A stretch of DNA of 64,000 nt from an uncultured Spirochaetaceae bacterium (GTDB lineage: Bacteria; Myxococcota_A; UBA9160; UBA4427): NCBI GenBank assembly GCA_964474355.1, contig CAYYSY010000105.1, forward strand, positions 7,649 to 71,648. The letters are read 5' to 3'. This document shows, piece after piece, positions 7,224-57,678 of this stretch. Each line of letters starts with the position of its first letter. Positions within the stretch are counted from its first letter, which is position 1. Under the pieces are notes generated by a model. The model was not told where the DNA came from, searched no databases, and worked only from the letters and a program-made list of their open reading frames with translations. The position numbers and the translations under genes are program-made.

Positions 7224-8555
7224 ATCGAGCGTATCGCCGATCGTGAACCACAGGATCGCCACGAGGATCAGCGGCACGACGAAGCGCAGCAGCACCTGCC
7301 AGCCGAAGAGCAGGGGTCCGAGCTTCGAGCCAGCCTCGGCCTCGTCGAGCGCACCCGGCATGAACCAGCCGACGAAGACCGAGAGCAGCAGTCCGCCGAG
7401 GATCAGCAGCAGGTTCCCACCGATCTGGTCCATCAGGCCGAGCACGTCGAGGGAGAACGCAGCGGGCACGCCGAGCAGGGCGATGGCCGAGCCACAGACG
7501 AGCGCGGCGGTGCGCCGGCTGGTGCCGAACGAGTCGATCGTGGACGCGACGACGACCTCGAGCAGCGAGATCGCGCTCGTGAGGCCACCGACGAGCAGCG
7601 CGAAGAAGAAGGCGGTGCCGACGAAGGTGCCGACGCCGCCCATCTCGGCGAACGCCTTGGGCAGCGTGATGAAGAGCGCGCCCAGCGTGCTCGCGCCGAC
7701 GTCCTCTTGCAGACCGAGCGCGAAGAGCAGCGGAAAGACCACGAGCCCGGCGATGAACGCCACGCCGAAGTCCGAGATCGCGATCGTGATCGACTCGGCT
7801 GGCAGGTCGGTGTTGCGGTCGAGATAGCTCGCGTAGGTGAGGATCGCGCCCATGCCGAGGCTCAGGCTGAAGAAGGCCTGGCCGGCCGCGTCCCGCAGCA
7901 CGTCCCTGTTCCAGATCGCACCGAAGTCGGGCTCGAAGTAGTAGGCATAGCCCTGGCTCGCGCCTGCGAGGGTCGCTGCGTAGAGCGCGAGGCCGATGAC
8001 GATCAGCGCCAGCAGCGGCATGAGCACGATCGACGCGCGCTCGATCCCCGAGCGGATGCCACCCGAGACGACGACCATCGTCACCGCCATGAAGGCGAGG
8101 TGCCAGCCGAGGGCCGGCCAGCCACTCGCGATGTGCTCGAAGTGCCCGCCGGCGTCGGCGGGGAAGCCTGAGACGAGTGACTCGAGCGCGTAGCGGAACG
8201 TCCAGCCCGCGATCACGCTGTAGTAGGCGAGGATCACGAAGCCCGCGAGCACGAAGAGCCCACCGAGCGGACGCCAGGCCGAGCCGCCGTAGTGGGCGAG
8301 GGCCTGCACCGGACTGCGCCCCGCGCCTCGTCCGAGCGTCAGCTCGGCGAGCATCACCGGCAGGCCGACCACCAGGGTCATGACGACGTAGAGCACGACG
8401 AAGGCGGCGCCACCGTTCTCGGCGGCCATGTACGAGAAGCGCCACATGTTGCCGAGCCCGACCGCCGAGCCGACGGCAGCAAGGGTGAAGCCGAGTCGGC
8501 CGGACCAGTGCTCGCGTGAGTTCTCCAATCCCGAATCCCCCTGGAGCGCGAGCAT
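7197..8555 (-). CDS. Sodium-dependent transporter, NSS/SNF family
   Basis: REHWSGRLGFTLAAVGSAVGLGNMWRF, GGAAF, GQAFFSLSLGMG; many hydrophobic segments. Confidence 0.92.
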   Translation of the reverse strand: MLALQGDSGLENSREHWSGRLGFTLAAVGSAVGLGNMWRFSYMAAENGGAAFVVLYVVMTLVVGLPVMLAELTLGRGAGRSPVQALAHYGGSAWRPLGGLFVLAGFVILAYYSVIAGWTFRYALESLVSGFPADAGGHFEHIASGWPALGWHLAFMAVTMVVVSGGIRSGIERASIVLMPLLALIVIGLALYAATLAGASQGYAYYFEPDFGAIWNRDVLRDAAGQAFFSLSLGMGAILTYASYLDRNTDLPAESITIAISDFGVAFIAGLVVFPLLFALGLQEDVGASTLGALFITLPKAFAEMGGVGTFVGTAFFFALLVGGLTSAISLLEVVVASTIDSFGTSRRTAALVCGSAIALLGVPAAFSLDVLGLMDQIGGNLLLILGGLLLSVFVGWFMPGALDEAEAGSKLGPLLFGWQVLLRFVVPLILVAILWFTIGDTLDLVRSLAAD

Positions 8556-9534: not shown

Positions 9535-11151
9535 CTACGGGCTCACCCCGGCATACTCGATGCCCGTCAGGTGGTGCATCTCGCGATCGAAGGTCGCGAG
9601 GTCGTCGGGCGCGAACTGATTCAGGTGATCGTGCCCGCACGCGCGCGCCATGACGCGCATGAGCTCTGCGGACGAGCCGAGGAAGCGCTCGAGCCGCTTC
9701 GCCGCCAGGTCGACCTTCAGCCGCGCGCGCAGGTGCTCCTGCTGGGTCGCGATGCCGACCGGACAGTTGTCGGTGTGACAGGCGCGCATGGCGATGCACC
9801 CGATCGCCTGCATGGCCGAGTTCGAGAGCGCGATGGCGTCGGCGCCCAGCGCGAGCGCCTTCACGAAGTCGGAGGGCACCCGCAGCCCGCCCGTGATGAC
9901 GAGCGTGATGTCGCTGCGGCCCGTCCGATCGAGGTGCCGCCGCGCGCGGGCGAGCGCCGGAATCGTCGGCACGCTGATGTTGTTGCGGAAGATGAGCGGC
10001 GCCGCCCCGGTGCCCCCGCCGCGTCCGTCGAGGATCACGTAGTCGGCGCCCGCGCGAATCGCGGCCTCGACGTCGCGCTCGACGTGCTGCGCCGAGAGCT
10101 TGAAGCCGATCGGGATGCCGCCGGTGGCCTCGCGCACGGCGTCGCCAAAGCGTCGGTAGTCGTCGAGATTGTCCCAGTCGGGGAAGCGAGGCGGTGAGAT
10201 CGCCGACGTGCCCTCGGCGATGCCGCGCACCTCGGCGATCTTCCCCTTCACCTTGTGCCCCGGCAGATGGCCGCCGGTGCCCGTCTTCGCGCCCTGCCCG
10301 CACTTGAAGTGAAAGGCCTGCACGCGCTCGAGCTTCTCCATCGAGAAGCCGAAGCGCCCCGATGCGAGCTCGTAGAGGTAGCGACCGTTCTCGCGCTGCT
10401 CCTCGGGGAGCATGCCGCCCTCCCCCGAGCAGATGCCCGTGCCCGCGGCCTCGGCGCCCTTCGCGAGCGCCACCTTCGCCTCCTCGGACAGCGCGCCATA
10501 GCTCATGTCCGACACGAAGAGCGGAATCTCGAGCTCGAGGGGACGCTTCGCGTTCGGGCCGATCACGACGTTGGAGCCGACCGGGTGATCGTCGAGCAGC
10601 GGCGGCCGGTGCAGCTGCGCCGTCATGATCTGGATGTCTTCCCAGCGCGGCAGCTCACCCCGCGGCACGCCCATGGCAATGACGCGGCCATGGTGGCCGG
10701 CGCGCTCGAGGCCGTGCTCGGACATCTCGCGGATCCAGTGATTGAAGGGCTCGTCGGGCGTACCGTGGGGATCGGCGTAGGTACCCAGGTCTGCGCTTCG
10801 ATCGTAGGGCTGGGGGTGGCAGCGCTCCCACTCGCGGATCTCGTCCGCGTCGACGAAGACGCCGTCGTCCTCGATCCAGTGGGTGAACTTCTCGAGCCGC
10901 TCGGCGTTGGTGTACGCGCTGACGCCGCTGCGGAATCGGTAGTCCCAGTCGTGCAGGCCGCAGATCAGGTCCTCGCCCTCGATCCGGCCATCGGAGAGCA
11001 GCGCGCCGCGATGCAGGCAGCGGCCGTAGAGCACCGACACGGCGTCGGTGTCGGGCCAGCGCACGATGACGAGGTCGACGTCGGCGACGAGCGCATGCGC
11101 CGGCCTGGCGGGGTCGAGCTCACTGAAGGTGGCGATGCGGACGCGATCCAT
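9535..11151 (-). CDS. Rieske [2Fe-2S] domain fused to an FMN-binding glutamate-synthase-like domain
   Basis: Rieske CLH..CGLH; SDMSYGALS, SGEGGM, GQGAKTGTGGHLP, DGRGGGTGA; [3Fe-4S]-type CIAMRACHTDNCPVGIATQ. Confidence 0.88.
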   Translation of the reverse strand: MDRVRIATFSELDPARPAHALVADVDLVIVRWPDTDAVSVLYGRCLHRGALLSDGRIEGEDLICGLHDWDYRFRSGVSAYTNAERLEKFTHWIEDDGVFVDADEIREWERCHPQPYDRSADLGTYADPHGTPDEPFNHWIREMSEHGLERAGHHGRVIAMGVPRGELPRWEDIQIMTAQLHRPPLLDDHPVGSNVVIGPNAKRPLELEIPLFVSDMSYGALSEEAKVALAKGAEAAGTGICSGEGGMLPEEQRENGRYLYELASGRFGFSMEKLERVQAFHFKCGQGAKTGTGGHLPGHKVKGKIAEVRGIAEGTSAISPPRFPDWDNLDDYRRFGDAVREATGGIPIGFKLSAQHVERDVEAAIRAGADYVILDGRGGGTGAAPLIFRNNISVPTIPALARARRHLDRTGRSDITLVITGGLRVPSDFVKALALGADAIALSNSAMQAIGCIAMRACHTDNCPVGIATQQEHLRARLKVDLAAKRLERFLGSSAELMRVMARACGHDHLNQFAPDDLATFDREMHHLTGIEYAGVSP

Positions 11152-51679: not shown

Positions 51680-52066
51680 CTACGGCGGGCTGCTCGAGAT
51701 GAAGAGCACGTAGACGTAGGCGACGGCGAAGAAGACGTAGAACGAGAGCGAGACCCAGAACGCCAGCGCCCAGCCGCCGCCCGACGGGAACGTGAAGCAG
51801 AGCACGATCCCGCAGAGCTCCACGATCAGCAGCAGGATCGCGACGGATCGGCGCACCAGCGGATCGACGAAGCTGCGCGCGCGCCAGGGCAGCATGCCGA
51901 TCAGCAGCACGCCGAGGCCGTAGAGACGCGCGTACACGACGCCTGCCTCGGTGAACGGCGCGCCCCCCGTCAGCTTGTCGGTGAGCCACTCCGGGTAGAA
52001 CCAGAGGAGCGGCACGAAGACGAACGAAGACAGCGCATGGAGCAGGAAGACGAGGTTCAGGCTCAC
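51680..52066 (-). CDS. Hypothetical 4-TM membrane protein
   Basis: Four hydrophobic segments; directly downstream of the StyC-like/lactone oxidase fusion gene. Confidence 0.6.
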   Translation of the reverse strand: MSLNLVFLLHALSSFVFVPLLWFYPEWLTDKLTGGAPFTEAGVVYARLYGLGVLLIGMLPWRARSFVDPLVRRSVAILLLIVELCGIVLCFTFPSGGGWALAFWVSLSFYVFFAVAYVYVLFISSSPP

Positions 52067-52115: not shown

Positions 52116-53942
52116 TCACAGGTCGACGAGCTCCCGGGCCCAGTCGTTCACGAAGACCCGGTCGGGATCCATCTGGTCGCGCACCATGGCGAACTCGGCC
52201 ATCTGCGCGCCGTAGGCGCGGGTGCGCACGTGGTCGGTGTCGAAGATCAGCTTGCCCCAGTGCGGGCGGCCGCCGAGCTCGATCCACTCGCGCTCGACGT
52301 CCTCGAAGTAGTCCTCGAAGCGGGGCGTGTTCTTGTACGTGAGGATCTCGATGTAGCAGCTCCGATCGTTGCCCGTCGAAGGCGAGAGCAGGCCGCGGCC
52401 GGGCCCGACGAAGCGCAGATGCATCACGAGGTTCTGGGGATAGATGTGCTCGGCGCGGAGCCCGCGAAGCCGGCGCACGACGCCCCACCACGCGGTCCTC
52501 ACGTTGTCGAAGCTCGCACCCACCGGGATCGCGTAGCCGAGATCGACGCTGTCCATGAAGCTAGTCTGATACTGGAGCGCCTCGGGCAGCGGCACGACAC
52601 GGTTGCCCTCACCCACCATGCTGCCGAAGAGCCGCATCACCGGCGGTGTGATGAAGGGGAAGAGCGACGTGAGGGTGAGCAGGACCGGCCCGAGGATCTT
52701 GTTCTGGAACCACTGGCGAACGGAGCGCAGCCAGTCCTGCCACTGCCAGTCCGAGGGCGGCTCCACGGGCTCCTTGTCCCACGTCTTGACCCAACAGTCG
52801 TCGTTGTAGGGGAACCAGAAGACCTCGGCGTAGTCGTGACTCGTGACCAGTGTCTCGACGTTCTCGAGCGTGGTCTCCATGTCCTGGTGCACGTCGACCT
52901 CCCGCACGTTGTAGATCGGCACGCAGTCGAAGGTGAGGCTGTAGACGACACCGAGCAGGCCGAGGTTGCAGACCAGCGCGTCCCATCGCCGCTGCACGTC
53001 GACCGGCACGGGCATGCTGAAGTCGGGACGATCGAAGGTCTGCAGGGCGCCGCTTGCGTCGACGAGCTGGATACGGGAGACGAGATCGGTGAAGTGCGGG
53101 TGCCCGAGACCCGTACCGTGGCAGCCGTTCGCGAACGCGCCGCCGACCTGCACGTAGGGGATCACCGTCGTCGTCTCGAGCGTGAGCCCCGACGAGGCGG
53201 CGTGATCGACGAGCTCTTTCATCGTCACTCCGGCTTCGACCGTGATCGACTCGGCGCCGGGCGTGGTCGAGACGTCGAGCACCTGGTTCAGCCGCCCGAG
53301 CTGGATCATCACGCCATTGCATGCGGGGCCGGGATTCCACGAGAAGCCCCCGCCGACGGCGCGGATCGACAGGTGCGCCGCGCGGGCCTGCAGCACGGCG
53401 TCCTGCAGCTCCCCGAGCGTCGCGGGGCGCACGCGGCGACGAGGGCGGACCGATACGGTGCGCGCCCAGTTGTGCCAGCGGTTGCTCGTCAGCAGGACGC
53501 GGACGCGGTCCCACCCCGCACGCAATGACACGACGAGGAACGAGAGCACGAGACCGACCACGCCGGCCGCGAAGAGCACGAATGCGATCTGATTCGCGAG
53601 CGGCGGCCCCCAGACCCGCCCATCGACCTCATAGATCGCGGCGATGGCCGACCCGACCACCGCGGCCCAGGCACCGATCACCGCGGTCCACGTGACGAAG
53701 CCGAGCAGCGGGGGCGAGAAGTAGATGAACGCGAGCCCGGCAGCCATGGCGATGAGCAGGACCCCGTGGACGAGGCCCTGCATGTGCGCCACCTCCCAGC
53801 GGTGCACGTAGTCGGGCGGTTGACCCTGGCATTGCGAGACACCGAAACCGATGCCGAGCAGCATCCCGAACGCGAAGATCAGGCCACCGTGGGCGGCGAG
53901 CCGGGCTCGTTGTCTGGTGAGCAGGAGCAGGAGGAAGTTCAT
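52116..53942 (-). CDS. FAD-linked sugar-1,4-lactone oxidoreductase (ALO/GULO family) with N-terminal 4-TM StyC-like domain
   Basis: WHNWART, IRAVGGGFSW, VEAG, QVGGAFANGCHGTG, LGLLGVVYSLTF, GRPHWGK; aa 1-145 hydrophobic with LAAHG and WEVAH motifs. Confidence 0.85.
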   Translation of the reverse strand: MNFLLLLLTRQRARLAAHGGLIFAFGMLLGIGFGVSQCQGQPPDYVHRWEVAHMQGLVHGVLLIAMAAGLAFIYFSPPLLGFVTWTAVIGAWAAVVGSAIAAIYEVDGRVWGPPLANQIAFVLFAAGVVGLVLSFLVVSLRAGWDRVRVLLTSNRWHNWARTVSVRPRRRVRPATLGELQDAVLQARAAHLSIRAVGGGFSWNPGPACNGVMIQLGRLNQVLDVSTTPGAESITVEAGVTMKELVDHAASSGLTLETTTVIPYVQVGGAFANGCHGTGLGHPHFTDLVSRIQLVDASGALQTFDRPDFSMPVPVDVQRRWDALVCNLGLLGVVYSLTFDCVPIYNVREVDVHQDMETTLENVETLVTSHDYAEVFWFPYNDDCWVKTWDKEPVEPPSDWQWQDWLRSVRQWFQNKILGPVLLTLTSLFPFITPPVMRLFGSMVGEGNRVVPLPEALQYQTSFMDSVDLGYAIPVGASFDNVRTAWWGVVRRLRGLRAEHIYPQNLVMHLRFVGPGRGLLSPSTGNDRSCYIEILTYKNTPRFEDYFEDVEREWIELGGRPHWGKLIFDTDHVRTRAYGAQMAEFAMVRDQMDPDRVFVNDWARELVDL

Positions 53943-54006
53943 GTCGGCACCTCACTCGACCGGGCGTCATCCGCCTGCGGGCGGCGTCGCGCGCGGGCTC
54001 TTCATG

Positions 54007-54501
54007 TCATGCGTGACTCACGAGCTGCTCTGGCTCCCCCGCGCGTTCCTTTGCGAGGAGATCCTCGACCTCGTCCCTGAACTGCGGGCGGTAGTTCTGC
54101 CTCATCGCCTCCCACCAGGCGGTGCCGCCCGTCGTCGCGATGAACATGATCATGTTGTTGACGTGCTGATCGGCGTGATCTTCGCTCACGCCGTCGAGCT
54201 TCTCGAAGAACGCGAGCTGCGCGCCGGCCACGAGCCGCCCCATCATCATCGAGAAGCGCACGCGGTCGACGGGCGCGAGGCCCTTGAAGTCGGCCAGACC
54301 CGAGATGAAGATCTTCGCCACGGCCTCATCGGCGACGATCGGCGCCAGCGCGAGCGATACGCCGCTGTAGTTGTTGCGGCGTGACTCGGCCTTGGTGATG
54401 CGCGTGTTGTCCTTGATCTGGATGGCGAGGTACGCGAGCGTGGCCACGGTGGCCACGGCGCCGATCAGCTCACCAATGCTGCCGAAGTCCTGGATCGTCA
54501 T
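54007..54501 (-). CDS. Conserved hypothetical protein with N-terminal TM
   Basis: GSIGELIGAVATVATLAYLAIQIKDNT matches a recurrent marine hypothetical family pattern (from memory); ends ..GG..WW. Confidence 0.7.
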   Translation of the reverse strand: MTIQDFGSIGELIGAVATVATLAYLAIQIKDNTRITKAESRRNNYSGVSLALAPIVADEAVAKIFISGLADFKGLAPVDRVRFSMMMGRLVAGAQLAFFEKLDGVSEDHADQHVNNMIMFIATTGGTAWWEAMRQNYRPQFRDEVEDLLAKERAGEPEQLVSHA

Positions 54502-54646
54502 GGTGCGGTCCTGACACGACCAGGTGTTGAGGTCCGTCTCGTTGCTCCGTCGCCGGGTCGCCGCCTTCACCCTATCCGATGATCCGAAGCAATGTCTCCA
54601 AGAATCGACGGGCCGGGTGCGGGTGCGGGCGCTCCCATCACACCAT

Positions 54647-55192
54647 TCAAGCGCACGGCGACTCGAATTGGAATGCAATTCTGCTTGTCGAATCAACACT
54701 CCCCGGTGTGATGCGGAACGCCCCCTCTCTGCACCAGCGCGAGCTGAGCGCACCTACACCGACCGGCAACGGCCGTGCGTGCCCGGAGGGCCACGAAATC
54801 GGAGTGTGGAAGCAGCGACAGGGGGCGCTCGCCCTCAGGAGGAGCTCGGCGCGGCGCCCCGATCGCGCGGTGCCCCGTGGCCCGGACGGCGCCGCCGGTG
54901 CGAGCCCACGATGGCGATTGGGGCTCGACGCGACGAAGCGTTGCCGATAGAGGCGCTGCTTGGCGCGCTCGGGCAGATCGAAGACGGATCGCAGCGTGGC
55001 GCGCCTCTGCGCGTCGAGCCTCGCGTCGCCGGGCGGTCGCGCCACGACCATGAAGCCCGACTCGTGACAGGCCAGGCCGACCTGCTCGTCGGCGCGGTCA
55101 CGCGCCTCGCCCGGCTCGCCCGGCAATGACTCGCCGTCGAAGATGGGGATGTCGCTGCCGCCGTTCATCGGGCGCGCCATCACACGGCTCAT
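54647..55192 (-). pseudogene. Truncated isopenicillin-N-synthase-like 2OG-Fe(II) dioxygenase (N-terminal DIOX_N remnant)
   Basis: DIPIFD..ACHESGFMVV..FDLPERAKQRL..NRHRG, then sequence loses coding character; no HxD..H catalytic domain in any frame that I could see. Confidence 0.55.
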
Positions 55193-56469: not shown

Positions 56470-57678
56470 ATGAAGCCCGTCGATGATTACAACCTCTACG
56501 ACCCCGACACCGTCGAGCGCCCGTGGGAGTACTACGCCGCGCTGCGCAAGCAGGCGCCGGTGCACACGATCCAGGGCGGCATGGTCATGGTCTCGACCCA
56601 CGATCTCTGCCTCGAGGCGCTGCGAGACCCCGAGACGTTCTCGAGCAAGTTCATCCAGAAGATGTCCGGTGGTGCCGCGGGCGCCGACGGCAACTACATG
56701 GGTCCCGAGACGCTGCTCTCCAACGACCCGCCCGAGCACACGTACTTCCGCAAGCTCGTGAACAAGACCTTCTCGCCGACGCGCGTGAAGAAGATGCTTC
56801 CCTCGATCGAGAAGATCACGGGCGATCTGATCGACGCGATCCTCGCGGGCCCGAACCGCTTCGACGCGATGACGGAGTTCGCGATCCCCCTGCCCCTCAC
56901 GGTGATCGCCGATCAGCTCGGCGTGCCGCGAGCCGACATGGCGAACTTCAAGACGTGGTCCGACGCGACCGTGGTTCCGATCGGTGGCATGGCGACGCCC
57001 GAGCAGCTGATCGAGTCGCTCCAGCTCGTCGAGCAGCTCAAGGTCTATCTCGCCGAGCGCTGCCGGGAGGCCAAGGCGGCGCCGCGCGACGACATGATCT
57101 CCGACCTCATCACCTCCGACGTCGATGGCGAGCGCCCGATCGAGGAGAAGGAGGTCATCAGCCTGCTGCAGCAGTTCCTCGTGGCGGGCAACGAGACGAC
57201 GACGAACCTCATCGGGGCGACGCTCATGTTCCTCTTCCAGAACCCGGAGGAGTTCGAGAAGCTGAAGGCGAACCCGATGCTGCTGCCCAACGCGATCGAG
57301 GAGGCGTTGCGCCTCGAGACGCCGACCGCCGGCATGTGGCGGGTGGCGACACGCGACACCGAGCTCGGCGGCGTCGCGATTCCCGAAGGCAGCATGATCA
57401 TGCTGCGCTACGCCGCGGCGAACCGCGACGAGGCGCTCTTCGACGATCCCGACACGTTCGTAATCGACCGCCCGAACGCCAAGGACCACATCGCGTTCGG
57501 CATGGGCATCCACTTCTGCCCCGGCGCGGCTTTGGCCCGGGAGGAGACGCGCATCGGGCTCGAGCAGATCTTCGAGCGGCTGCCGAACCTGCGGCTCGCC
57601 CCCGGCAACGACTTCAAGCACCACCCGAGCGTGCTGCTGCGCGGCCTCGTGCGGCTCGATCTCGAGTACGACGGCTGA
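56470..57678 (+). CDS. Cytochrome P450
   Basis: NDPPEHTYFRK, AGNETT, EEALR (ExxR), HIAFGMGIHFCPG. Confidence 0.95.
   Translation: MKPVDDYNLYDPDTVERPWEYYAALRKQAPVHTIQGGMVMVSTHDLCLEALRDPETFSSKFIQKMSGGAAGADGNYMGPETLLSNDPPEHTYFRKLVNKTFSPTRVKKMLPSIEKITGDLIDAILAGPNRFDAMTEFAIPLPLTVIADQLGVPRADMANFKTWSDATVVPIGGMATPEQLIESLQLVEQLKVYLAERCREAKAAPRDDMISDLITSDVDGERPIEEKEVISLLQQFLVAGNETTTNLIGATLMFLFQNPEEFEKLKANPMLLPNAIEEALRLETPTAGMWRVATRDTELGGVAIPEGSMIMLRYAAANRDEALFDDPDTFVIDRPNAKDHIAFGMGIHFCPGAALAREETRIGLEQIFERLPNLRLAPGNDFKHHPSVLLRGLVRLDLEYDG

What the first reader, a model, noticed from the sequence alone, without database searches (positions are those of the whole stretch)
52116..53942. Styrene-oxide-isomerase-like membrane domain fused to a FAD sugar-lactone oxidoreductase
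Seen: aa 1-145 form about four TMs with RARLAAHGGLIFAFGMLLG and RWEVAHMQGLVHGVLLIAMA, which align by eye to Pseudomonas StyC (RKMAGHGILMIF..; GWARAHSGPALNGMMVIAVA, from memory). His53 matches the StyC heme-ligating His, while the StyC catalytic Tyr region (here GAWAAVVGS) has no Tyr. The ALO/GULO-type domain has GGGFSW where covalently flavinylated members have GxGHS, suggesting non-covalent FAD as in dehydrogenase-type members. Inference: a self-contained membrane dehydrogenase passing electrons from FAD to a heme-b domain and possibly to quinone. I know of no description of this fusion.
Basis: partly seen in the sequence, partly recalled or inferred. Interest (0 to 1): 0.72.

Follow-up and report, generated by a model that had tools for sequence, protein, structure and literature searches.

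The report
SOI-fold haem domain fused to flavoenzyme
A rare but genuine bacterial gene joins a four-helix membrane domain, related to the haem enzyme styrene oxide isomerase but lacking its catalytic residues, to a sugar-lactone-type FAD dehydrogenase, which probably makes a membrane-bound flavo-haem dehydrogenase of a kind not yet described.

Summary
Window 52116-53942 (-) is a 608-aa ORF. Residues 1-152 are a true homologue of styrene oxide isomerase (SOI): Pfam PF26512 hit, hhalign 98.4%, AF2 pLDDT 96.8, top PDB fold hit 8pnu with TM 0.77. Residues 156-608 are a FAD_binding_4 + ALO domain. The fusion is not an artefact. It occurs in at least 9 full-length, co-diverged homologues (29-55% identity), and contigs from four metagenomes span the ORF without indels. 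Both domains form single clades, so it arose once.

The haem-ligand His (H53) is invariant. The isomerase residues D95, N99 and Y103 are lost. SOI N64 is His (H59) only in fusion-type sequences. The flavin domain lacks the flavinylation His, has Thr/Pro at the O2 gatekeeper and keeps R510/HWGK, so it is dehydrogenase-type. A 128-aa four-TM protein is a conserved neighbour.

By SOI topology the haem lies in the outer leaflet and the flavin domain is cytoplasmic, so direct FAD-to-haem transfer is doubtful. My best reading is a trimeric substrate:quinone dehydrogenase whose remodelled, probably bis-His haem b acts as an SdhCD-like interfacial haem. All function is inferred. The architecture is new and appears undescribed.

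The parts
52116..53942 (-). Complete ORF, 608 aa: SOI-like haem membrane domain fused to an ALO/GLDH-type FAD domain
53950..53953 (-). GAGG Shine-Dalgarno-like motif, 7 nt upstream of the ATG at 53942
   Evidence: sequence read directly
53487..53942 (-). SOI-fold four-TM domain, aa 1-152. TM spans are about 15-36, 51-71, 79-102 and 117-139.
   Evidence: Precomputed Pfam PF26512:SOI; hhalign 98.4% and E 4.7e-15 against SOI; AF2 pLDDT 96.8; Foldseek top hit 8pnu_A, TM 0.77/0.75
53784..53786 (-). H53 codon, equivalent to the SOI H58 axial haem ligand
   Evidence: Invariant in 9/9 full-length fusions and in 102/104 stand-alone relatives
53766..53768 (-). H59 codon, at the position of SOI N64 in the distal substrate-binding network. 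The His is specific to fusion-type sequences and is a candidate sixth haem ligand.
   Evidence: His in 8/9 full-length fusions. Among 143 SOI-like proteins, His occurs only in fusion-type sequences and fragments; the others have N (66) or G (49).
53457..53489 (-). Inter-domain linker, aa 152-162. It is low-confidence and probably flexible, and it sits in an Arg-rich (cytoplasmic) stretch.
   Evidence: pLDDT <50 in the full-length AF2 model; 10 K/R against 1 D/E in aa 139-175
53034..53441 (-). FAD_binding_4 domain, aa 168-303. It includes GGGFSW with F200 (53343-53345) in place of the flavinylation His, and T259 (53166-53168) at the O2 gatekeeper column.
52131..52934 (-). ALO (cap/substrate) domain, aa 337-604. 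H508-L-R510 sits at the alditol oxidase E320-x-R322 position, and H561-W-G-K564 is the HWXK motif.
51680..52066 (-). Conserved partner gene 49 nt downstream: a 128-aa predicted four-TM protein of unknown function with an invariant His10 near the cytoplasmic end of TM1
   Evidence: Adjacent to the fusion in the window, L001, L002/3 and L010 (same strand) and in L004-6 (convergent); absent near ALO-only genes. No PDB or Pfam assignment beyond weak DUF8292/DUF4345 hits.

Best explanation
The gene encodes a membrane-integral flavo-haemoprotein dehydrogenase.

Shown by sequence and structure comparison: an N-in/C-in four-helix SOI-fold domain carries the conserved haem-b ligand H53. It is followed on the cytoplasmic side by a non-covalent-FAD aldonolactone/alditol-type oxidoreductase domain with an intact R510/H561/K564 active site.

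Inferred: like SOI, the membrane domain trimerises around three interfacial haems. In the fusion lineage the Lewis-acid isomerase site was dismantled (D95, N99 and Y103 lost). The distal Asn became His, and that His comes from the neighbouring protomer, so the haem is probably six-coordinate bis-His, i.e. cytochrome-b-like. The flavin domain oxidises a cytoplasmic polyol- or lactone-like substrate that remains unknown. Being dehydrogenase-type, it hands electrons to the membrane quinone pool rather than to O2. The haem sits in the outer leaflet, too far from the flavin for direct tunnelling. It would therefore act as the interfacial bis-His haem b of succinate:quinone reductase anchors (SdhCD) does: as a structural keystone and an electron sink or relay in contact with quinone. 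The conserved 128-aa four-TM partner possibly completes the membrane module.
For: SOI homology and fold.

Haem ligand is invariant while the isomerase residues are lost.

Distal His is exclusive to fusion-type sequences. In SOI, H58 and N64 face the haem from two different protomers, and N64 contacts the Fe-bound oxygen (PMC11374702).

Dehydrogenase-type flavin domain: there is no flavinylation His in 9/9 fusions or in the sister clade, whereas all more distant ALO-only relatives have it. The gatekeeper is Thr/Pro in the fusions and mostly Gly in those relatives. The rule for covalent versus non-covalent members, and the use of cytochrome c by non-covalent dehydrogenases, is in PMC11505616. 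The nearest solved structure is L-galactonolactone dehydrogenase.

Active-site Arg, Lys and HWXK are retained.

Topology.

The two domains co-diverged and each forms a single clade, so the fusion is old and selected.

The small membrane partner is linked to the fusion and not to ALO-only genes.

From my own knowledge, not tested here: the relative DprE1 uses membrane quinones, and p-cresol methylhydroxylase is a VAO-family flavocytochrome.
Against: No experiment supports any of this. Haem binding, trimerisation, bis-His ligation, quinone reduction and the substrate are all inferred.

The haem-propionate Arg (SOI R112) is not in register. Some fusions have 'DGR' shifted by two residues, and the actinobacterial clade has no Arg there.

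One fusion (P0008) has Arg instead of the distal His. Three fusions have Pro at the gatekeeper, which is an oxidase-like residue.

Stand-alone SOI-like genes lie in catabolic or biosynthetic clusters, which suggests the fold is generally a catalyst rather than a redox carrier.

AF2 does not fix the domain orientation, because the linker has pLDDT <50. I could not measure any cofactor distance, because coordinates are not exposed. No RNA data were available.
Confidence: 0.4

Rival explanations
1. Direct flavocytochrome b. Electrons pass by tunnelling from FAD straight to the SOI-domain haem b and then to quinone or another acceptor, as in flavocytochrome b2, cellobiose dehydrogenase or p-cresol methylhydroxylase.
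For: A dehydrogenase-type FAD domain needs an acceptor. Non-covalent family members use a haem protein, cytochrome c, as acceptor (PMC11505616). The haem ligand is conserved and there is a fusion-specific distal His. The linker is short, so the flavin domain is held on the membrane.
Against: Topology places the haem in the outer leaflet: H53 is 3-5 residues below periplasmic loop 1. The flavin domain lies beyond the cytoplasmic face. The SOI trimer is 'closed' toward the cytosol. No second haem site was found in the domain: H18 is not conserved among fusions.
Confidence: 0.2
2. Bifunctional enzyme. The SOI-like domain is still a haem Lewis-acid catalyst (an isomerase or related) acting on a lipophilic substrate, and the ALO-like domain oxidises the product or makes the substrate in the same pathway.
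For: Stand-alone SOI-like genes sit beside a FAD_binding_3 monooxygenase (a styA-styC-like pair, L017), between aldehyde dehydrogenase/CoA ligase and ADH genes (L019), beside NMO/SDR genes (L022) and in a PKS cluster (L023). This suggests catalytic roles even though none of them has Y103. A P450 lies near the fusion in the window and in L005.
Against: The fusions are the most derived members. They lack D95, N99 and Y103, and N99A and Y103A kill SOI. They also replace N64, which half of the stand-alone proteins keep. A distal His would tend to occupy the sixth coordination site. The two active sites would be on opposite sides of the membrane. No epoxidase gene is conserved next to the fusion.
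Confidence: 0.15
3. Plain membrane anchor and oligomerisation scaffold. The SOI-fold domain only tethers and trimerises the flavoenzyme at the membrane, with the haem structural or even lost, so that the enzyme can act on a membrane-associated substrate in the way DprE1 or type II cholesterol oxidase do.
For: In SOI the haem is needed for folding and trimerisation (H58A aggregates), which alone could explain why H53 is conserved. DprE1 and cholesterol oxidase are structural relatives of the flavin domain. The soluble sister clade shows that the enzyme works without the domain.
Against: A derived distal His conserved in 10/11 fusion-type sequences, and a conserved dedicated four-TM partner gene, are not expected for a passive anchor. 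The two domains have co-diverged over long distances.
Confidence: 0.15

Closest known systems
Styrene oxide isomerase (StyC/SOI; PDB 8pnu/8pnv, 30tw; Pfam PF26512)
   Same: Same four-TM fold (TM 0.77). Homologous sequence (hhalign 98.4%). Same axial haem His (H58 = H53), the conserved W54 = W49, G65 = G60 and W97 = W92, and the same predicted N-in/C-in topology.
   Different: D95, N99, Y103 and T20 are absent. N64 is replaced by His. The periplasmic loops are shorter (152 aa against 169 aa). There is no sty gene context. It is fused to a 450-aa flavin domain.
L-galactono-1,4-lactone dehydrogenase (GLDH) and other aldonolactone/alditol oxidoreductases of the VAO family (PDB 8qmy, 7sml, 2vfr, 8ot8)
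   Same: FAD_binding_4 + ALO architecture, HWXK motif, and the active-site Arg and Lys. It lacks the flavinylation His and has no Gly at the gatekeeper, as in GLDH, which is an obligate dehydrogenase using cytochrome c.
   Different: Identity is only about 20-25%. It scores below the NCBIfam cut-offs for the known subfamilies (TIGR01679: 179 against 292 bits; TIGR01678: 169 against 397 bits). It has His in place of the substrate-binding Glu (H508). It carries an N-terminal haem membrane domain. The substrate is unknown.
Succinate:quinone reductase membrane anchor (SdhC/SdhD with interfacial bis-His haem b). This is an analogy of working principle, from my own knowledge.
   Same: A flavoprotein dehydrogenase on the cytoplasmic face is anchored by small helical membrane subunits that hold a haem b between two chains. 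Electrons go to quinone, and the haem is not necessarily on the main path.
   Different: There is no sequence or fold relationship. There is no iron-sulfur subunit to bridge the flavin to the membrane. The assembly is trimeric rather than heterodimeric. Nothing has been tested experimentally.
Flavocytochromes (flavocytochrome b2, cellobiose dehydrogenase, and p-cresol methylhydroxylase of the VAO/PCMH family), from my own knowledge
   Same: A flavin dehydrogenase is combined with a dedicated haem module in one protein or complex. PCMH shows that this occurs within the VAO superfamily.
   Different: Those haem modules are soluble cytochrome b5, CDH-type or c-type domains positioned within tunnelling distance. 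Here the haem module is an integral-membrane SOI fold, predicted to hold the haem across the bilayer from the flavin.

Membership tests
Styrene oxide isomerase (enzyme, EC 5.3.99.7) | Four-TM SOI fold | tested here: met
   AF2 pLDDT 96.8. Foldseek top PDB hit is 8pnu_A with TM 0.77/0.75 over 149 columns and rmsd 3.1 A; the next hit has TM 0.56.
Styrene oxide isomerase (enzyme, EC 5.3.99.7) | Sequence homology to the SOI family (Pfam PF26512) | tested here: met
   Precomputed PF26512:SOI hit, unmarked (E <= 1e-5), on P0001 and P0002. hhalign of the family profile against SOI gives 98.4% and E 4.7e-15. The local Pfam copy lacks this model, so one search showed nothing.
Styrene oxide isomerase (enzyme, EC 5.3.99.7) | Axial haem ligand His (H58) | tested here: met
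   H53 aligns with H58. It is invariant in 9/9 fusions and in 102/104 stand-alone relatives.
Styrene oxide isomerase (enzyme, EC 5.3.99.7) | Catalytic/substrate network N64, D95, N99 and Y103 (the N99A and Y103A mutants are inactive) | tested here: not met
   The query has H59, G90, A94 and S98 at these positions. No fusion has D95, N99 or Y103.
Styrene oxide isomerase (enzyme, EC 5.3.99.7) | Haem b bound at the interfaces of a homotrimer | not testable with these tools
   Only monomer models without cofactors can be made here, and coordinates are not exposed.
Styrene oxide isomerase (enzyme, EC 5.3.99.7) | Styrene-catabolic gene context (styA/B epoxidase and styD aldehyde dehydrogenase) | tested here: not met
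   The neighbours are Ppk1, GDPD, a small four-TM protein, a P450 and a GH3. No epoxidase or aldehyde dehydrogenase is conserved in the other fusion loci.
Aldonolactone oxidoreductases (ALO/GULO/GLDH; VAO superfamily) | N-terminal FAD_binding_4 domain plus C-terminal ALO domain | tested here: met
   PF01565 E 6.5e-23 and PF04030 E 1.8e-39. Foldseek to GLDH gives E 1.5e-28, and to AldO TMt 0.82.
Aldonolactone oxidoreductases (ALO/GULO/GLDH; VAO superfamily) | C-terminal HWXK motif and active-site Arg | tested here: met
   H561-W-G-K564 and R510 are present. K and R are invariant in all 21 sequences compared. The motif's role is described in PMC11505616.
Aldonolactone oxidoreductases (ALO/GULO/GLDH; VAO superfamily) | His for covalent 8-alpha flavinylation (oxidase-type members) | tested here: not met
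   F200 in the query and F/Y/A/G in 9/9 fusions. His is present in all the more distant ALO-only relatives. This places the protein with the non-covalent, dehydrogenase-type members.
Aldonolactone oxidoreductases (ALO/GULO/GLDH; VAO superfamily) | Membership of a curated subfamily (TIGR01679 bact_FAD_ox, TIGR01678 FAD_lactone_ox, TIGR01676 GLDHase) | tested here: not met
   179.3 against a cut-off of 292 bits, 169 against 397 bits, and 68.7 against 458 bits. It is a distinct subfamily and the substrate cannot be transferred.
Flavocytochrome (flavin-to-haem intramolecular electron transfer) | Flavin module and haem module in one polypeptide | tested here: met
   Both modules lie in one ORF, confirmed in at least 9 homologues and in indel-free contigs from four metagenomes. 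Haem binding itself is inferred.
Flavocytochrome (flavin-to-haem intramolecular electron transfer) | Cofactors within tunnelling distance (about 14 A or less) | tested here: inconclusive
   No coordinates are available. Topology argues against it: the haem His is next to a periplasmic loop, the flavin domain follows TM4 on the Arg-rich cytoplasmic side, and the linker is low-confidence.

The most novel reading that the evidence does not exclude
The SOI fold has so far been known only as a Lewis-acid isomerase. In this lineage it has been converted, by an Asn-to-His switch at the distal site, into a bis-His cytochrome b. Together with the fused dehydrogenase-type flavin domain and the dedicated four-TM partner, whose invariant His lies near the inner leaflet, it would form a new class of respiratory dehydrogenase or transmembrane electron conduit. 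This would couple oxidation of a cytoplasmic sugar-like substrate to the quinone pool or to a periplasmic acceptor.
Probability: 0.2. Interest if true: 0.8.

Novelty: new variant of a known kind. Interest (0 to 1): 0.6.

Why it matters
SOI was described in 2024 as a unique haem-b membrane enzyme in which the iron is a Lewis acid. This fusion suggests that evolution reused the same fold for a different haem chemistry, and it offers a natural experiment on what converts a catalytic five-coordinate haem into a redox or structural one: a single Asn-to-His change contributed by a neighbouring protomer.

It also defines a new membrane-bound branch of the vitamin-C-type (aldonolactone/alditol) flavoenzymes, with an unknown substrate, in uncultured marine and sediment bacteria. 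It links an uncharacterised four-TM family (DUF8292/DUF4345-like) to a testable function.

For biocatalysis, it is a ready-made scaffold that joins an SOI-type haem site to a flavin domain.

Tried and rejected
1. Local Pfam, NCBIfam and PDB-phmmer scans of aa 1-152 found nothing. This is because the local Pfam copy predates PF26512, not because homology is absent.

2. The word-indexed homologue search with the N-domain alone returned nothing. The exhaustive profile search was needed.

3. hhalign with only two sequences was weak (E 0.0015). The 109-sequence profile resolved it.

4. I first guessed that 'IEIL' (E532) was the E-x-R substrate motif. Alignment to alditol oxidase showed that the true equivalent is H508-L-R510, so the guess was dropped.

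5. I considered a second, inner-leaflet haem site using H18. It was rejected because H18 is Asn or Val in five of nine fusions.

6. I considered the helical hairpin at aa 400-442 as a membrane-dipping element. It is hydrophobic only in the query's clade, so it is not a conserved feature.

7. I tested whether the small partner is a divergent SOI paralogue. It is not (hhalign 0.8%), and it has no PDB relative.

8. I looked for separate SOI-like or partner genes next to ALO-only homologues (a Rosetta-stone test). There are none within 6 kb in eight loci.

9. The cyclase-STAND neighbour seen in five MAG loci is absent from the 64-kb window.

11. No RNA-seq runs were found, there were no Rfam hits and no promoter-like sites.

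12. The organism name was not recoverable.
Full report
OBSERVATION

Window 52116-53942 (minus strand) is an uninterrupted 608-aa ORF. It has an ATG start and a GAGG motif 7 nt upstream. Residues 168-303 match Pfam FAD_binding_4 (E 6.5e-23), and residues 337-604 match ALO (E 1.8e-39). The first 152 residues gave no hit in the local Pfam, NCBIfam or PDB sequence searches. However, the database copies of this protein (P0001) and of a 53%-identical 615-aa homologue (P0002) carry a precomputed strong hit to Pfam PF26512, a family named 'SOI'. The local Pfam copy evidently predates that model.

IS THE N-TERMINAL DOMAIN REALLY SOI-LIKE?

I recovered the authentic SOI sequence from PDB 8pnu/8pnv, using a remembered fragment only as bait.

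An exhaustive profile search of 1.84 billion representative proteins found 140 relatives. Almost all are stand-alone proteins of about 140-150 aa, and all that could be checked carry PF26512.

A 109-sequence family profile, with the query as master, aligns to SOI with hhalign probability 98.4% and E 4.7e-15. AlphaFold2 on an 87-sequence alignment gives a four-helix bundle with pLDDT 96.8. Its best PDB match is SOI itself (8pnu_A: TM 0.77/0.75, 149 columns, rmsd 3.1 A), and the next hit reaches only TM 0.56. Homology and fold are therefore established.

WHICH SOI FEATURES ARE KEPT?

The literature defines these residues. H58 is the axial haem ligand, contributed by one protomer. N64, D95, N99 and Y103 form the substrate network of the neighbouring protomer, and the N99A and Y103A mutants are dead. 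T20 locks H58 in place. An Arg in periplasmic loop 2 contacts a haem propionate. The periplasmic loops are V32-E52 and F108-I126. Both termini are cytosolic (PMC11374702; PMC12502698).

In the alignment:
- H58 corresponds to H53, which is invariant in 9/9 full-length fusions and in 102/104 stand-alone relatives.
- D95, N99 and Y103 correspond to G90, A94 and S98, and no fusion has the SOI residues. Y103 is absent from the entire stand-alone family.
- N64 corresponds to H59. Among 143 SOI-like proteins with a recognisable motif, His at this position occurs only in fusion-type sequences or their fragments. The rest have Asn (66) or Gly (49). One fusion, P0008, has Arg.
- The propionate Arg is out of register ('DGR') in the query's clade and missing in the actinobacterial clade.

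So the protein belongs to the SOI superfamily but is not a styrene oxide isomerase.

IS THE FUSION REAL?

Yes.
- The same architecture occurs in P0002, P0008 and P0011, and in five genome-resolved loci: three Acidimicrobiia/Actinomycetota MAGs and two MAGs labelled Spirochaetales.
- Nine full-length proteins align end to end. N-domain identity to the query is 29-52% and ALO-domain identity is 39-55%, so the two halves have co-diverged.
- Contigs from four marine and sediment metagenomes cover the ORF with substitutions only and no indels or joints. The domain junction itself is crossed by gapless contigs in three of them, including a variant with 40 substitutions in 990 nt.
- In NJ trees the fusion N-domains form one clade among the SOI-like proteins (11/11, plus two fragments).
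- The fusion ALO domains also form one clade, whose sister is a pair of soluble ALO-only proteins from Chloroflexota.

This indicates a single, old fusion event. The fusion is rare: a handful of 50%-identity clusters out of 1.84 billion, and five of 185,579 species representatives.

THE FLAVIN DOMAIN

The closest solved relatives are L-galactono-1,4-lactone dehydrogenase (phmmer E 2e-25, profile E 6e-41, Foldseek E 1.5e-28). Next come alditol oxidase (TMt 0.82), type II cholesterol oxidase and DprE1. Scores fall below the NCBIfam cut-offs for every curated subfamily, so the substrate cannot be transferred.

At the flavinylation position the fusions and their soluble sister clade have F/Y/A/G, whereas all more distant ALO-only relatives have His. 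At the column of GLDH Ala113, the residue changed in the 8qnc A113G variant, the fusions have Thr (6) or Pro (3), and the His-containing relatives mostly have Gly. According to PMC11505616, His marks covalent oxidase-type members, and the non-covalent plant and bacterial members are dehydrogenases that use cytochrome c.

The HWXK motif (H561-W-G-K564) and R510 are invariant. Alignment to alditol oxidase shows that its E320-x-R322 corresponds to H508-L-R510, so the Glu is replaced by His. The domain therefore looks catalytically competent, dehydrogenase-type and of unknown specificity.

TOPOLOGY AND WHAT IT IMPLIES

K/R counts for the query are:
- N-tail: 3
- Periplasmic loop 1: 1
- Cytoplasmic loop: 0
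- Periplasmic loop 2: 1
- Post-TM4 segment: 10

The same pattern holds in all nine fusions. This agrees with the experimentally determined N-in/C-in topology of SOI. The flavin domain is therefore cytoplasmic.

H53 lies 3-5 residues below periplasmic loop 1, so the haem sits in the outer leaflet. The SOI trimer is described as closed toward the cytosol.

The full-length AF2 model (pLDDT 89.5, pTM 0.77) has a low-confidence linker at residues 152-162, so the domain orientation is not defined. I infer that FAD and haem are separated by most of the bilayer. That is beyond the roughly 14 A usually taken as the limit for physiological tunnelling (my own knowledge).

CONTEXT

A 128-aa predicted four-TM protein lies 49 nt downstream. 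It has homologues immediately adjacent to the fusion in the window, L001, L002/3 and L010 (co-directional) and in L004-6 (convergent). It was not detected in L007. Neither it nor an SOI-like gene is found within 6 kb of the eight ALO-only homologues. It has an invariant His10 near the cytoplasmic end of TM1. It has no PDB relative, is unrelated to the SOI family, and shows only weak DUF8292/DUF4345 signals.

In all five MAG loci, a Zn-ribbon + class III nucleotide cyclase + AAA_16 + TPR protein of about 1,050 aa flanks the fusion. The 64-kb window has none. A P450 lies nearby in the window and in L005.

Stand-alone SOI-like genes sit in metabolic clusters. One follows a FAD_binding_3 monooxygenase directly, like styA-styC. 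Others lie among aldehyde dehydrogenase/CoA ligase/ADH genes, beside NMO/SDR genes, or in a PKS cluster.

INTERPRETATION

Best explanation (confidence 0.4): a trimeric, membrane-integral dehydrogenase in which the SOI-fold domain has given up isomerase chemistry. The distal Asn-to-His change comes from the neighbouring protomer, which is exactly the geometry in which SOI presents N64 to the iron-bound oxygen. It plausibly makes the haem six-coordinate bis-His. The cytoplasmic, dehydrogenase-type flavin domain would pass electrons to membrane quinone. The haem would act like the interfacial bis-His haem b of SdhCD, as structural keystone and electron sink or relay, and the small partner may complete the membrane module.

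Rivals:
- Direct flavocytochrome wire (0.2). It is disfavoured by topology.
- Bifunctional isomerase-dehydrogenase (0.15). The contexts of stand-alone relatives favour it. The loss of every catalytic residue, and active sites on opposite membrane faces, count against it.
- Passive anchor (0.15). It does not explain the derived, conserved distal His or the dedicated partner.

Everything beyond homology, residue conservation, topology prediction and gene linkage is inference. No experiment or transcript evidence was available.

NOVELTY

Searches of the held literature found the SOI structure and mutagenesis papers but no description of an SOI-like domain fused to a flavoenzyme. Automated Pfam annotation already marks the three domains on database copies, so the architecture is visible to databases but appears unstudied. 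I class it as a new variant of known kinds: a new domain architecture with a remodelled haem site.

Interest is 0.6. A specialist in haem or flavoenzymes would find the reuse of the 'unique' SOI fold, and the fusion-specific distal His, surprising and easy to test. The function remains conjectural and the lineage is rare.

Noticed in passing
window 51680-52066 (-); also L001 1986-2411, L010 5380-5754, L004 ~7855-8250, L005 7802-8200, L006 7883-8272: A 124-141-aa predicted four-TM protein of unknown function is always adjacent to the SOI-ALO fusion, whether co-directional or convergent, and is absent near ALO-only homologues. Invariant residues are H10, F17, P25, R47, G50, G86, T92 and Y117. 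It gives only weak DUF8292/DUF4345 hits.
   Followed up: partly
L004 8247-11339, L005 8197-11313, L006 8303-11707, L007 2420-5620, L010 6126-9563: A protein of about 1,030-1,145 aa (Zn-ribbon + class III adenylate/guanylate cyclase + AAA_16 STAND ATPase + TPR) flanks the fusion in all five MAG loci across two lineages. No homologue exists in the 64-kb window. It may be a dedicated regulator.
   Followed up: partly
L007 5752-7761 (fusion protein, periplasmic loop 1): This fusion carries an insertion of about 45 residues in periplasmic loop 1 that contains 7 cysteines (…PPCASSGAERWCDVSVTRICHAGDAPGTRCRCAADDPCV…). It could be a disulfide-rich or metal-binding periplasmic element sitting just above the haem site.
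   Followed up: no
window 56470-57678 (+) and L005 11354-12544 (-): A cytochrome P450 (34% identical between the two loci) lies within 2-4 kb of the fusion in two of the loci. The association is weak and its meaning is unknown.
   Followed up: partly
L017 2738-4435; L019 980-5545; L022 595-2952; L023 1552-5914: The broad stand-alone SOI-like family (PF26512, about 140-150 aa) keeps the haem His but none of its members has SOI Tyr103. Its genes sit directly after a FAD_binding_3 monooxygenase (styA-styC-like), within an aldehyde dehydrogenase/CoA ligase/ADH cluster, next to NMO/SDR genes, or in a PKS cluster. These may be undescribed haem-dependent isomerases for other epoxides.
   Followed up: partly
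window 10763-10857 (+): ARAGORN calls a 95-nt tRNA-Arg(TCG), but the Rfam scan of the whole window finds no tRNA at gathering threshold. The call is unusually long and overlaps long ORFs, so it is probably spurious.
   Followed up: partly
window 54007-54753 (-): The ORF upstream of the fusion (listed as 248 aa, with the real start probably internal near 'MTIQDFGSIGELIG…' and one predicted TM helix) has no family assignment. Its 3' part is also present on the short contigs L002/L003, but it was not seen in the other fusion loci.
   Followed up: no
P0057 (144 aa) and P0113 (171 aa): These two database 'proteins' match the fusion-type N-domain for only the first 35-60 residues and then run into unrelated sequence. 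They look like frameshifted or chimeric gene calls on short contigs, not genuine stand-alone forms.
   Followed up: partly
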